Of a stretch of DNA of 64,000 nt, positions 55,576 to 58,070 are shown in pieces. The number at the start of each line of letters is the position of its first letter. Within the stretch, counting starts at the first letter, position 1. The DNA lies in the IMG/VR virus record IMGVR_UViG_3300028731_000007, positions 6,062-70,061 of that record; one strand, given 5' to 3'. Made by a program: the position numbers and the translations under genes. Source of the DNA: a virus. The notes beneath the pieces are model-generated. The model had not been told where the DNA came from. It saw only the letters and a list, made by a program, of their open reading frames with translations, and did not search any database.

Positions 55576-56151
55576 CTAGCGGATCGAAAGTTCGGAGTTA
55601 ACCAATCTGGATGCTGCATTGACTTTGACACCCGTGCTTAAATTCTGTGCTCTACGTTTCAAGGCTTGCTCCAACACGAATTGCACATGTGGATCATCCA
55701 GTACCGCTTTAAGTCCTGGATGCATTGGCTGAGGCCATTGATTGAAAGCTGTCCAAATAGCAGCCGTCGATTCTGACCTGAATTCTGATTCTGGGTTGAC
55801 TACGAACTGCTTGGGGACAGTAACAAAATAAGTGTGGTACTCAAAGCCTTTTCCATTTCTGGATACCTTGAGCGGCATTACAGACCACTCACCGTTATAG
55901 CCGGTCTCTTCTCTGAGTTCCCGGCGTAGGGCATTGACCAAGTCTTCTGCGCCGTCAACGGAGCCACCCCACGTTCCGTAGCAATTCGGTGTATCAGAAT
56001 GAGGACCACGTAGCTGGAAACTAAAGTTACCGGTGTCTAGGGCCAGTACTAAGGCTCCGACTGCTTGGTGATATCCTCTGATGCCGGGTCCCCAATTCTC
56101 TTTATCCTTAGACGCCTCTATAGCAATAAGTCGTGACGCTGCTTTTATCAT
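55576..56151 (-). CDS. NUDIX hydrolase with AAxRL motifs at both termini
   Basis: Nudix box GGSVDGAEDLVNALRRELREETGY; MIKAASRLIA and VKVNAASRLVN; ATG 56151. Confidence 0.88.
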   Translation of the reverse strand: MIKAASRLIAIEASKDKENWGPGIRGYHQAVGALVLALDTGNFSFQLRGPHSDTPNCYGTWGGSVDGAEDLVNALRRELREETGYNGEWSVMPLKVSRNGKGFEYHTYFVTVPKQFVVNPESEFRSESTAAIWTAFNQWPQPMHPGLKAVLDDPHVQFVLEQALKRRAQNLSTGVKVNAASRLVNSELSIR

Positions 56152-56152
56152 T

Positions 56153-57601
56153 TTATAGTCCACTGTCAGTTCGAAAATTAGAAAAGGCCCACACATCTGA
56201 GTCGTCGTGCTCGTCGTCATACAGTTCACGATTTGCATGGGCTAGGGGCGTCCAATCGCTGTAGACCGCAGCAATAGGCCCAAGGAAGGGCGAAGCGATG
56301 TTTAACACGAATTCAAATGGTAGGTCCTCTGGTTCGCAATAACCTTGATTAGGATTGTCCAGCATCCAAACAATAGCACCTAACATTGAACCCACTACCT
56401 GCAATGTTGTTGCGTTTTGCCCTTCTACCAGTTCCCGTGATTCTTCGATAGAAAGTTGCGATCCGTACCACAGGGCATTCCGTTCATGACCTAGAAGCAA
56501 GACCCCTAGTTCATCGATTCCGCTCTGAATACTATTTTTAGCAATTCGGGTCTTTCTGTGCATCCACAATTCTTGTCCCTTCATTTCATGGACAGACGCA
56601 ATTGCAGCATCACACGGTTGATACGCATAGTAACAGGTCGGTCGATAATTCTCTGTACTAAAGTATTCGCTGATAGTGATGGCTTCCGAGTGCTGAATCA
56701 AATAGCCGTTGAATGTACCGCCCAAAGGTACCCACGACTTAACCGTGGTCTCCACACCCGGTTGCTCTAGATAGAGCACAGAGCCACCAGCGAGTTCTTT
56801 ACCGTCAGCAGGAATCTCTTTTTCGTGCGTGCCCCACCCCATTTCTGCTGGTGCTCGACCCTCAGCCCAGAACCCTTCACAGCTCCAGGTGTTGACGAAT
56901 TCATTAACACGCTTGGGTTCTTTCAGAATTTGTGTATCGCGCTCAGCCGTTTGAATTATTTTCACATTCAGGGCTTCAGCTAGCATTCCCCATTGCTCTT
57001 GGGACTCAGGGGTCCCTGTTTTCAGACCTGTATCTTTTGCGAGTTTGAGCAACGCCGCTTTAACAAAATGCGAAACTAGACCTGGATTAGCTCCATGCGT
57101 CACCACACAGGTAGAGGCCCCAGGATAGGCCGAGGCCATTCTTCGCATTTCTTGATGCGTTGTGTAGAGCGTGCGTTCACCCAGTTCCGGAATGATTTCG
57201 TCGGGTTCAGTAGCCCAACGTTCGATAGACGTGTCAATGTAGAGCACATTATTTTGTAGGCACCACTCAACGATTTCTAGTCCGTCTATGTTCAAGCTTA
57301 CGTTAATCAGTAAGTCACCGGGACTCAATAATTCATTTAGTGTTGGCACCAAATTAGATTTGACGATTTCACGATGAACGTAAGTTACACCCAAATCTTC
57401 GTATTTAGCAAATTCAGGGCGTACCTCTTTATCCAGAACGACTACCGCGCTAGGACTTACATCGAGGTGACGTAGAATTACGGGGAGAATCGATTGACCA
57501 ACACCACCGAAGCCTAGGACCAGGATATGTCCTCTGTGAGTTGCTAGTTTTTCGTGTTGATCCTCCAGCAGTCGTTGTGCAGCGTGTATTTGAACCTTCA
57601 T
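56153..57601 (-). CDS. hss: Homospermidine synthase
   Basis: GFGGVG NAD-binding motif, LYIDTSIE.W, HGANPGLVSHF, NTWSCEGF, QPCD, GIDELGVLL, NATTLQV; ATG 57601 with AAGGA RBS. Confidence 0.92.
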   Translation of the reverse strand: MKVQIHAAQRLLEDQHEKLATHRGHILVLGFGGVGQSILPVILRHLDVSPSAVVVLDKEVRPEFAKYEDLGVTYVHREIVKSNLVPTLNELLSPGDLLINVSLNIDGLEIVEWCLQNNVLYIDTSIERWATEPDEIIPELGERTLYTTHQEMRRMASAYPGASTCVVTHGANPGLVSHFVKAALLKLAKDTGLKTGTPESQEQWGMLAEALNVKIIQTAERDTQILKEPKRVNEFVNTWSCEGFWAEGRAPAEMGWGTHEKEIPADGKELAGGSVLYLEQPGVETTVKSWVPLGGTFNGYLIQHSEAITISEYFSTENYRPTCYYAYQPCDAAIASVHEMKGQELWMHRKTRIAKNSIQSGIDELGVLLLGHERNALWYGSQLSIEESRELVEGQNATTLQVVGSMLGAIVWMLDNPNQGYCEPEDLPFEFVLNIASPFLGPIAAVYSDWTPLAHANRELYDDEHDDSDVWAFSNFRTDSGL

Positions 57602-57632
57602 ATCAATCCTTTTAAGCACTTTCACTTTCAGC

Positions 57633-58070
57633 TCACGCAACGCTGATAATTTTTGTTTTATTTCCTATGTCCTCTAATTCTACTTCGTGCTCACCTTTAC
57701 TGAAATGATTGACCTCGGCGGACCTAGCCTTTGCCCAGTCGTTTGCATAAAGCTTGGCCTCAACGTCTTTTAACGGCGCGTCAACGATCACGAAGTCCTC
57801 GTTGTCCGGACGTTCATACGCATACTGCAGTGTATTTACCCAACCCTCGAAAGCATCTGCTTCCATCTTGGAGACCGCGACTAGGCGTAAGGCTGCTTCA
57901 ACTTTAGTGCTACCTGTCATTTTGTGATAAATATAATTAGTCAAAGCATAGGGCTCTTTCTTGCCGCTGCTTTTCTTGGCCTTATCCTCAGCGTCCTTCC
58001 ATTTATGTTCAAGACTTTTCTTGCTACCTTTGCCTTGTTTTACGTCATGTTTAATTATGTTATTGGGCAT
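57633..58070 (-). CDS. Hypothetical two-domain protein with internal AAxRL motif
   Basis: Basic N-terminal domain, then KVEAALRLVA; GGAG RBS before ATG 58070. Confidence 0.7.
   Translation of the reverse strand: MPNNIIKHDVKQGKGSKKSLEHKWKDAEDKAKKSSGKKEPYALTNYIYHKMTGSTKVEAALRLVAVSKMEADAFEGWVNTLQYAYERPDNEDFVIVDAPLKDVEAKLYANDWAKARSAEVNHFSKGEHEVELEDIGNKTKIISVA

What the first reader, a model, noticed from the sequence alone, without database searches (positions are those of the whole stretch)
55576..58070. Three-gene unit (basic protein, homospermidine synthase, NUDIX) all carrying the tag: possible polyamine synthesis inside or for the prohead
Seen: three adjacent co-oriented genes each contain AAxRL, and a GATTTTAC late-like motif lies at 58093-58100. 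Established: homospermidine synthase makes sym-homospermidine from two putrescines using NAD+; viral hss genes are known (Ralstonia phage RSL1, chloroviruses); polyamines neutralise packaged DNA. Inference: the enzyme is expressed late and packaged or ejected, to supply counter-ions for DNA condensation or to alter host polyamine pools after entry. A role in DNA hypermodification (compare putrescinyl-thymine in phage phiW-14) is possible, but no supporting gene is visible in this window.
Basis: partly seen in the sequence, partly recalled or inferred. Interest (0 to 1): 0.7.

Follow-up and report, generated by a model that had tools for sequence, protein, structure and literature searches.

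The report
Tagged homospermidine synthase in jumbo phage
An uncultured relative of Ralstonia jumbo phage RSL1 puts the short end-peptide it shares among about a dozen head-region proteins onto an intact polyamine-making enzyme, a NUDIX hydrolase and a small lysine-rich protein, so they are probably loaded into the virus head, though no experiment shows it.

Summary
Three adjacent minus-strand genes each carry AAxRL:
- a 145-aa protein, 58070-57633
- homospermidine synthase (Hss), 57601-56153
- a NUDIX hydrolase, 56151-55576

The motif works at protein level: 13 copies in the window's proteins against 0.55 expected, with varied codons. Most copies sit at protein termini.

The same tag occurs in relatives: RSL1, BcepSaruman and metagenomic genomes G001, G007 and G008. 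In complete genome G007, 22 of 26 copies lie beside the sheath, capsid, protease and portal genes.

Hss has every catalytic residue. Its tag is a low-confidence N-terminal helix outside the fold. Bacterial Hss, T4-like phage Hss and RSL1 Hss lack it; four of five Hss genes in this clade have it.

The "late motif" GATTTTAC is not recurrent (2 copies, 2.55 expected). The DNA-hypermodification idea gains no support, because G007 has no thymidylate-synthase-family gene.

The trio is not a fixed operon. hss is accessory, gene order is shuffled, and the "basic" protein is a fusion of two genes that are separate in G007.

Best reading (about 0.5): a T4-CTS-like prohead address or processing tag makes Hss, NUDIX and the lysine-rich module capsid cargo. 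Polyamine synthesis inside the head remains speculation. This scan had already noted the tag system on other DNA (e1-5346467).

The parts
58422..58454 (-). Terminator-like hairpin (13-bp stem followed by a T run) that closes the upstream unit, just before the block
   Evidence: sequence
58106..58360 (-). 84-aa ORF with a TTG start, no ribosome-binding site and no tag; doubtful gene, or a lineage-specific first gene of the unit
   Evidence: called as a gene in 3 of 4 independent contigs; no homologue in G001, G007 or RSL1
58093..58100 (-). GATTTTAC in the 35-nt gap before the first gene; not a recurrent motif
57633..58070 (-). 145-aa protein: lysine-rich module (residues 1-58, net +7), tag AALRL (59-63; 57896-57882), acidic C-terminal domain. 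Homologue of RSL1 ORF112 (N-terminal module only)
   Evidence: GGAG ribosome-binding site at 58082-58079
56153..57601 (-). Homospermidine synthase, 482 aa; tag KVQIHAAQRLLE at residues 2-13 (AAQRL at 57583-57569); Rossmann fold begins near residue 24
55576..56151 (-). MutT-like NUDIX hydrolase, 191 aa, with an intact NUDIX box. Tags at both ends (56142-56128 and 55617-55603). ATG lies 1 nt after the Hss stop codon
55570..55577 (-). AGTAAATA promoter-like motif overlapping the NUDIX stop codon, 27 nt before the dCMP deaminase ATG; marks the start of the next unit
   Evidence: 12 copies against 2.3 expected
55081..55542 (-). dCMP deaminase, untagged neighbour; also next to NUDIX in BcepSaruman and near it in RSL1
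50858..52938 (-). Two N-terminally tagged orphan proteins directly upstream of the portal gene (51649-52938 and 50858-51628)
49322..50854 (-). Portal (head-tail connector) protein
   Evidence: phrog_17327, E=1.6e-81
46405..48461 (-). Three tagged small proteins among the genes of this stretch: 48114-48461 and 46868-47248 (N-terminal tags) and 46405-46878 (C-terminal tag)
38608..39513 (-). Head maturation protease; His144 and Ser202 are among the columns invariant in 12 relatives
36637..38280 (-). Acidic scaffold-like protein with conserved V-x-A-A motifs near both ends
34639..35730 (-). Major capsid protein. Its N-terminal ~60 residues carry conserved hydrophobic-x-A-[A/S] motifs, including an invariant E-[I/L]-N-A-[S/G]
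24492..28962 (-). Three further tagged proteins within this stretch: 24492-24848, 24845-26170 and 28189-28962. Two are Lys/Pro-rich and low in complexity, and one has a Gly/Ala-rich hydrophobic segment

Best explanation
The window comes from an uncultured jumbo phage of the RSL1/Sarumanvirus group, whose cultured relatives infect Burkholderia, Ralstonia and Achromobacter.

Shown:
- Downstream of a terminator lies a tight block of three genes: a lysine-rich module-tag-acidic domain protein, a catalytically intact NAD-dependent homospermidine synthase, and a MutT-like NUDIX hydrolase.
- All three carry the clade's shared terminal peptide, consensus M-K-[L/I/V]-[N/x]-A-A-x-R-L-[L/V]-A. It is a short helix appended to unrelated proteins.

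Inferred:
- The peptide is a prohead address and/or a recognition site for the head maturation protease. This would be analogous to the capsid targeting sequence of T4 internal proteins.
- Hss, NUDIX and the lysine-rich module would therefore be loaded into the scaffold-filled prohead, possibly trimmed there, kept in the virion, and delivered with the DNA.
- Hss would convert two putrescines into sym-homospermidine. That gives a triamine to a phage whose likely hosts are putrescine-rich (host polyamine content is from my own knowledge of beta-proteobacteria, not tested here).

Not determined: whether Hss acts after injection, late in the cytoplasm, or in the head.

The trio is one variable stretch of a larger cassette of tagged cargo, not a dedicated polyamine operon.
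For: The tag is real:
- 13 copies against 0.55 expected, varied codons, and 11 of 13 copies within about 10 residues of a protein end.

The tag is clade-wide and sits at orthologous positions:
- G001: Hss MIKTQAAWRLLA, NUDIX and the module protein.
- G007: Hss MKINAASRLLAS. G008: Hss MKIEAAKRLKA, inside a run of seven genes that all start MKIEAAxR[L/I].
- BcepSaruman: NUDIX gp100 and gp099.
- RSL1: a form one residue longer, on ORF111, 112, 117, 120, 123, 124, 126, 127 and 133, plus the short form on NUDIX ORF109.

Tagged genes cluster around head genes:
- In complete genome G007, 26 copies against 2.2 expected; 22 lie at 3.4-38.8 kb and 216-218 kb, around sheath, capsid, scaffold, protease and portal.
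- In the window, all 11 tagged genes lie at 24.5-58.1 kb, flanking portal, protease and capsid genes.

Modularity:
- The lysine-rich module plus tag is fused to different C-terminal domains in different phages, and stands alone as a 70-71-aa protein ending in the tag in G007 and BcepSaruman.
- The window's C-terminal domain is a separate N-tagged gene in G007.

Resemblance to head-protein motifs:
- The first half of the tag ([L/I/V]-x-A-A) matches motifs conserved in the N-terminal regions of the capsid protein (invariant E-[I/L]-N-A-[S/G] in 22 relatives) and of the scaffold.

The enzymes look functional:
- Hss matches solved Hss 2ph5 at E=8e-119. Its N172, E220, W239, E247, H304, E306, Y325 and D363 correspond to BvHSS N162, E210, W229, E237, H296, E298, Y323 and D361, and are invariant in 22 viral Hss (PMC4725965).
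- The AlphaFold2 model has pLDDT 88. Residues 3-13 form a helix with pLDDT below 50-65, outside the fold.
- The NUDIX box is intact.

Precedent: T4 loads IPI-III and the enzyme Alt through a ~10-aa N-terminal peptide that gp21 then removes (PMC9958956).
Against: - There are no virion proteomics, N-terminal data or expression data for any tagged protein. The two RSL1 virion papers are not held.
- RSL1 Hss, the only biochemically validated phage Hss in this clade (PMC9992855), has no tag, so Hss works for these phages without it.
- Untagged Hss sits beside dCMP deaminase in T4-like phages, in what look like ordinary metabolic gene clusters.
- Some tags are internal, and no consistent cleavage residue follows the tag. 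Glu is enriched after it but not constant.
- The tag shows no sequence likeness to the T4 CTS.
- Head-proximal position and shared strand are only indirect evidence for late expression.
- No late promoter was identified.
Confidence: 0.5

Rival explanations
1. Hss and NUDIX are ordinary cytoplasmic auxiliary metabolic enzymes: a triamine supply for translation and DNA packaging, and nucleotide-pool hydrolysis alongside dCMP deaminase. The shared peptide serves something other than packaging, such as docking to a common partner or assembly site, co-regulation, or controlled turnover.
For: - RSL1 Hss is active and untagged (PMC9992855).
- Untagged Hss lies next to dCMP deaminase in 13 other viral contigs, including a T4-like phage with RegA.
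- NUDIX stays next to dCMP deaminase in BcepSaruman, which has no hss.
- NUDIX is weakly MutT/NUDT18/NudG-like.
- In the alignment the NUDIX tag directly precedes the conserved core, so it could be structural there.
Against: - The same peptide sits on at least 11 unrelated proteins in the window and at least 22 in G007, at either terminus.
- It is concentrated around head genes rather than among the replication and metabolic genes.
- It joins interchangeable modules.
- Four of five clade Hss have gained or kept it.
Confidence: 0.3
2. The motif is only a cleavage site of the phage protease ([L/I/V]-x-A|A-x-R-L). It would trim or separate domains in a polyprotein-like way and have no addressing role, and cleavage need not occur inside proheads.
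For: - Hydrophobic-x-A-[A/S] motifs are conserved in the capsid protein, the scaffold and the protease N-terminus.
- The internal tag in the 145-aa protein sits exactly where G007 has two separate genes.
- From memory and untested: herpesvirus assemblin, which shares a fold with phage prohead proteases, cuts V-x-A|S.
Against: - C-terminal tags lie only 2-8 residues from the stop codon, and stand-alone 70-aa modules end in the tag. Removing so few residues serves little purpose unless the peptide also recruits.
- As far as I know, prohead proteases act inside the prohead, which again implies packaging.
Confidence: 0.12
3. Hss supplies a polyamine for DNA hypermodification, comparable to putrescinyl-thymine in phage phiW-14. 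NUDIX and dCMP deaminase would shape the pyrimidine pool.
For: RSL1 has a dUMP hydroxymethyltransferase (ORF230) beside sugar- and sulfate-activating genes. dCMP deaminase adjoins the block.
Against: - No thymidylate-synthase-family gene and no dCMP deaminase was found in G007, a complete relative with a tagged hss.
- None was found in the held parts of the window's contig or G001.
- G005 has such a gene but no hss.
- HPLC of DNA from the related phage Matilda found no modification.
Confidence: 0.03
4. The shared AAxRL is a chance or low-complexity coincidence.
For: None beyond the shortness of the motif.
Against: 13 copies against 0.55 expected, and never more than 4 in 2000 shuffles. The motif is conserved at orthologous positions in five other genomes.
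Confidence: 0.01

Closest known systems
Homospermidine synthase of Ralstonia phage RSL1 (ORF110), bacterial-type HSS (EC 2.5.1.44)
   Same: 58% identical over 471 residues. Same syntenic block between the ORF107 and ORF115 homologues, next to a tagged NUDIX and the lysine-rich module protein. All catalytic residues are shared.
   Different: RSL1 Hss starts MDKVGNIQLDG and has no tag; the window, G001, G007 and G008 enzymes carry it. Gene order also differs: NUDIX-hss-ORF111-ORF112 in RSL1, module-hss-NUDIX here.
Capsid targeting sequence (CTS) of phage T4 internal proteins IPII/IPIII and Alt, removed by prohead protease gp21
   Same: A ~10-residue peptide at the start of unrelated proteins, including an enzyme. 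The phage encodes a head maturation protease, and the tagged genes lie near the head genes (PMC9958956).
   Different: No sequence likeness to the T4 CTS. The tag also occurs at C-termini and internally. No constant hydrophobic-x-Glu cleavage signature follows it. Packaging and cleavage are not demonstrated.
Encapsulin cargo-loading peptides
   Same: A short terminal peptide, at either end, shared by unrelated cargo enzymes of an HK97-fold shell. The window's capsid protein matches a solved phage capsid protein, 6wkk.
   Different: Different consensus sequence, and binding to the shell has not been tested. These are phage heads with a separate scaffold and protease.
Herpesvirus assemblin maturation site (V-x-A|S)
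   Same: The first half of the tag, and the conserved capsid and scaffold motifs, read [L/I/V]-x-A-[A/S].
   Different: This resemblance is recalled from memory and was not tested. The protease here has no Pfam or PDB sequence match.
Viral polyamine enzymes (chlorovirus PBCV-1 HSS pathway, Achromobacter phage Motura hss-gss)
   Same: A virus-encoded HSS (PMC9992855).
   Different: Motura's Hss is only 32% identical, untagged as far as seen, and clustered with gss. No gsp or other polyamine gene was found in G007.

Membership tests
Bacterial-type homospermidine synthase (HSS) | Sacchrp_dh_NADP plus Sacchrp_dh_C domain pair and full-length similarity to solved HSS | tested here: met
   Pfam E=3e-22 and 2e-26. 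PDB 2ph5 E=8e-119 and 4plp E=9e-111, covering residues ~19-478.
Bacterial-type homospermidine synthase (HSS) | Catalytic and substrate residues N162, E210, W229, E237, H296, E298, Y323, D361 (BvHSS numbering, PMC4725965) | tested here: met
   All are aligned and identical. The corresponding N172, E220, W239, E247, H304, E306, Y325 and D363 are invariant in 22 viral Hss.
Bacterial-type homospermidine synthase (HSS) | Makes sym-homospermidine from putrescine | not testable with these tools
   Inferred from residue conservation and from the activity of the RSL1 orthologue reported in PMC9992855.
NUDIX hydrolase | NUDIX fold and the box G-x5-E-x7-R-E-U-x-E-E-x-G-U | tested here: met
   Pfam PF00293 E=1.4e-8; phrog_1198 E=2e-20. 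The box reads GSVDGAEDLVNALRRELREETGY. The substrate is unknown; there are only weak MutT/NUDT18/NudG matches.
T4-type capsid-targeting-sequence cargo | The same short terminal peptide on several unrelated proteins of one phage | tested here: met
   11 proteins in the window, at least 22 in G007.
T4-type capsid-targeting-sequence cargo | Phage encodes a prohead protease, and tagged genes sit with head genes | tested here: met
   phrog_18299 protease, E=8e-83; clustering shown.
T4-type capsid-targeting-sequence cargo | Tag ends in the protease's cleavage motif (T4: L/I-x-E) | tested here: inconclusive
   Glu is enriched 2-7 residues after R-L but is not constant. An alternative [L/I/V]-x-A|A site lies within the tag and resembles capsid and scaffold motifs. 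The cut site is unknown.
T4-type capsid-targeting-sequence cargo | Sequence similarity to the T4 CTS (MKTYQEFIAE) | tested here: not met
   The consensus is MK[L/I]NAAxRL[L/V]A. This is an analogue, not a homologue.
T4-type capsid-targeting-sequence cargo | Tagged proteins are present in virions, and the tag is sufficient for loading | not testable with these tools
   No proteomics were accessible.
RSL1/Sarumanvirus-like jumbo phages | Shared portal and capsid proteins and shared head-region synteny | tested here: met
   Portal 62% identical to BcepSaruman and 57% to RSL1. Same gene block as RSL1 ORF107-ORF136.
Thymidine hypermodification pathway (phiW-14 type) | dUMP hydroxymethylase (thymidylate synthase family) in the same genome | tested here: not met
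   Absent from complete genome G007 and from the held parts of the window's contig and G001. Present only in RSL1.

The most novel reading that the evidence does not exclude
The phage head carries an active polyamine synthase together with a protease-released lysine-rich peptide. Homospermidine and the peptide would then act as built-in counter-ions for a ~230-kb genome, in the head or at the moment of entry. This would be the first small-molecule biosynthetic enzyme known as addressed capsid cargo.
Probability: 0.12. Interest if true: 0.85.

Novelty: new variant of a known kind. Interest (0 to 1): 0.55.

Why it matters
If the tag is a head address, RSL1/Sarumanvirus-type jumbo phages load a changing, sequence-predictable set of proteins into their particles, including a polyamine synthase and a NUDIX hydrolase. 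That would extend the T4 internal-protein principle to a new tag and to metabolic enzymes.

It would also give a simple handle for experiments: tag-reporter fusions, and virion proteomics of the culturable relatives RSL1 and BcepSaruman. These could show what these phages inject.

It bears on how very large genomes are neutralised in the head, and on why phages of putrescine-rich hosts acquire hss.

If the tag is not an address, the block is an ordinary auxiliary metabolic region and Hss is a known kind of phage gene.

Tried and rejected
- **Complex prediction.** Head protease (residues 60-301, 12-row alignment) with full-length NUDIX (8-row alignment) gave no verdict: score 0.11 and 0.03 against a mark of 0.32. 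This counts neither for nor against binding.
- **Late promoter.** GATTTTAC and ATTTTAC are not enriched. The sigma-70-type scan found fewer sites than shuffles did. AT-rich TTAATT-like strings occur upstream of several head genes, but I did not treat them as evidence.
- **Literature.** The RSL1 virion papers (Yamada 2010; Effantin 2013) are not held. The Matilda preprint has no held supplements. The jumbo-phage comparative paper does not mention polyamines or RSL1.
- **The 145-aa protein.** Pfam, PHROGs and NCBIfam gave nothing. Only 4 homologues were found among 5.8 billion proteins. The protein atlas gave no hit above chance level.
- **Whole-genome context.** The 140-kb and 230-kb contigs of this same phage in ENA and JGI could not be searched.
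- **A-x-E cleavage after the tag (phiKZ/T4 style).** Considered, but Glu is not constant, especially in G007.
- **Hss aminobutylating lysines of the module protein (hypusine-like).** Rejected as unlikely. The HSS active site is a deep, narrow pocket (PMC4725965), and BcepSaruman keeps the module without hss.
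Full report
**What is there**

The window is 64 kb of a 70.7-kb IMG/VR viral contig, estimated 30% complete. Identical proteins occur on contigs of up to 230 kb in many samples.

By portal identity the phage belongs with Burkholderia phages BcepSaruman and BcepSauron (62%), Ralstonia phage RSL1 (57%), BCSR5 and Motura. It shares the RSL1 ORF107-ORF136 gene block.

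On the minus strand, events run in this order:
- A strong terminator-like hairpin (58454-58422) ends the upstream unit.
- A doubtful 84-aa ORF follows. It has no ribosome-binding site and no homologue in relatives.
- A 145-aa protein, 58070-57633, preceded by GGAG.
- Hss, 57601-56153, preceded by AAGGA after a 31-nt gap.
- NUDIX, 56151-55576, whose ATG lies one base after the Hss stop.
- The NUDIX stop overlaps an AGTAAATA motif (12 copies in the window against 2.3 expected), 27 nt before the dCMP deaminase ATG.

Independent gene callers on other contigs give the same 482-aa Hss and 191-aa NUDIX.

**The tag**

AAxRL occurs 13 times in the window's 84 ORFs against 0.55 expected, never more than 4 in 2000 shuffles. 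It occurs once in the other five frames, and codons vary, so selection acts on the peptide.

Nine copies lie 4-9 residues from the start codon, two lie 5-8 residues from a stop, and two are internal. All three genes of the finding carry it, and NUDIX carries it at both ends.

The tag is clade-wide:
- In G001 (119 kb) the orthologues of Hss, NUDIX, the 145-aa protein and four others carry it.
- BcepSaruman has it on NUDIX gp100, gp099 and at least six other proteins.
- RSL1 uses a form one residue longer (I-x-A-A-V-x-R-L-x-A-T-E-V) on at least nine ORFs between ORF111 and ORF133, and the short form on NUDIX ORF109.
- In the complete 218.9-kb genome G007 there are 26 copies against 2.2 expected. 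Of these, 22 lie at 3.4-38.8 kb and 216-218 kb, around sheath, capsid, scaffold, protease and portal.
- In G008, Hss sits in a run of seven consecutive genes that all begin MKIEAAxR[L/I].

The pooled consensus is M-K-[L/I/V]-N-A-A-x-R-L-[L/V]-A-[S/T].

**Hss**

- It matches solved bacterial Hss at E=8e-119, but only from about residue 19 onward.
- The eight residues that Krossa et al. assign to catalysis and substrate binding (PMC4725965) are all present, and are invariant in 22 viral Hss.
- AlphaFold2 gives mean pLDDT 88 and pTM 0.90. Residues 3-13 form a helix with pLDDT below 50-65, outside the confident fold.
- The tag is absent from about 55 other viral Hss, which mostly start M-x-x-x-F-K-E-F, and from RSL1 Hss.
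- It is present in the window, G001, G007 and G008.
- In a tree of viral Hss only, with no bacterial sequences and with support values not examined, RSL1 is sister to the window/G001/G007 group and G008 branches apart. The tag was therefore gained twice, or lost in RSL1.
- hss is accessory. It is absent from G005, G006, G009 and BcepSaruman.

**The other two genes**

NUDIX has an intact box and only weak MutT/NUDT18/NudG-type matches. Its N-terminal tag is present in all eight orthologues (R7 and L8 invariant), and the C-terminal tag in three.

The "basic" protein is neutral overall. A lysine-rich module (residues 1-58, net +7) is joined by the tag to an acidic domain.
- Its few homologues keep the module and the tag but carry different C-terminal domains.
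- In BcepSaruman and G007 the module is a 70-71-aa protein that ends in the tag.
- The window's C-terminal domain is a separate N-tagged gene in G007.

The tag therefore marks module boundaries.

**Is the trio a unit?**

The order differs in each relative:
- Window: module-hss-NUDIX.
- G007: module-hss-x-NUDIX.
- G001: hss-x-NUDIX-x-module.
- RSL1: NUDIX-hss-ORF111-module.
- BcepSaruman: NUDIX-module-dCMP deaminase, with no hss.

The common factor is the tag and the position between the ORF107 and ORF115 homologues, not a fixed operon.

**What the tag most likely does**

- The window encodes a head maturation protease (phrog E=8e-83), a portal, a major capsid protein and an acidic scaffold-like protein.
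- The N-terminal regions of the capsid and scaffold proteins carry conserved hydrophobic-x-A-[A/S] motifs, including an invariant E-[I/L]-N-A-[S/G] in 22 capsid proteins. These match the first half of the tag.
- Several tagged proteins are Lys/Pro-rich and low in complexity, and one has a hydrophobic Gly/Ala-rich segment, as in ejection proteins.
- T4 loads IPI-III and the enzyme Alt into the scaffold core through a ~10-aa N-terminal peptide that gp21 then removes (PMC9958956).

By analogy, the tag is most likely a prohead address and/or protease recognition peptide. Hss, NUDIX and the module protein would then be capsid cargo.

This is inference. There are no proteomic or expression data, and RSL1 Hss works without a tag.

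**What is not supported**

- The GATTTTAC "late motif" is at chance frequency.
- DNA hypermodification has no support. RSL1 has a dUMP hydroxymethyltransferase, but G007, which is complete and has a tagged hss, has no thymidylate-synthase-family gene, no dCMP deaminase and no gsp. None is seen in the held parts of the window's contig or G001.
- Synthesis of polyamine inside the head is not excluded, but nothing points to it specifically. Small molecules diffuse through capsids (my own knowledge), so a location in the head is not needed for counter-ion supply.

**Comparison and novelty**

Phage hss is known: RSL1 (shown to be functional) and Motura (PMC9992855). Capsid-targeting peptides are known in T4.

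What is new is a different tag in the RSL1/Sarumanvirus group, placed on a polyamine synthase. This scan had already noted the tag system on another genome (e1-5346467) and on this window (e1-5350534). My analysis reached the same reading independently and adds three things:
- the Hss-specific comparison;
- the genome-wide clustering in G007;
- the module fusion and split.

Noticed in passing
window 55570-55577, 59699-59706, 45284-45291, 27133-27140 and eight other sites: AGTAAATA occurs 12 times against 2.3 expected. It is typically 22-32 nt before start codons of metabolic and replication genes that lack a ribosome-binding site (for example dCMP deaminase). It is a candidate phage-specific promoter and resembles the T4 late TATAAATA.
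   Followed up: partly
L127 (G008:C1:6961-11397): Seven consecutive genes, Hss among them, all begin MKIEAAxR[L/I]. This is a compact cassette of tagged genes, most of them small orphans.
   Followed up: partly
G001:C1:52334-54370 (inside L071): The head protease reading frame is about 679 aa. The window's protease matches its two ends, leaving a ~330-aa insert in the middle, possibly an intein or a homing endonuclease.
   Followed up: no
G008:C1:106094-108162: The thymidylate-synthase-family gene is split into two pieces about 1.1 kb apart (profile positions 1-170 and 167-266), suggesting an intron or a mobile insertion.
   Followed up: no
G005:C1:62071-62520 (L141): The NUDIX match is reported with two in-frame TAG codons inside the matched stretch. 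This could be a broken gene, or the match may run beyond the real ORF.
   Followed up: no
L038 (G002, 235.8-kb complete T4-like phage): dCMP deaminase, an unknown gene and an untagged Hss lie together near RegA, a rubrerythrin and an adenylate/guanylate cyclase domain protein. hss next to dCMP deaminase recurs in 13 of 60 viral loci.
   Followed up: partly
window 27677-27776: A tandem heptamer CACTAGT, about five copies, lies in the intergenic region upstream of the gene at 27170-27676.
   Followed up: no
window 24845-26170: A tagged 441-aa Lys/Pro-rich protein with a Gly/Ala-rich hydrophobic segment and a second tag-like SIASRLITAE near its C-terminus. It looks like an ejection or internal virion protein.
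   Followed up: no
RSL1 ORF126 (AB366653.2 69491-69727): The annotated start is probably too far downstream. The upstream in-frame extension begins MYDIKAAVNRLQL, a typical RSL1-form tag.
   Followed up: no
RSL1 52511-55566; BcepSaruman gp113-gp115: NAD salvage genes (an NMN adenylyltransferase-Nudix or cytidyltransferase, plus a phosphoribosyltransferase) lie a few genes upstream of the NUDIX/hss block in both cultured relatives. Hss uses NAD as a bound cofactor.
   Followed up: no
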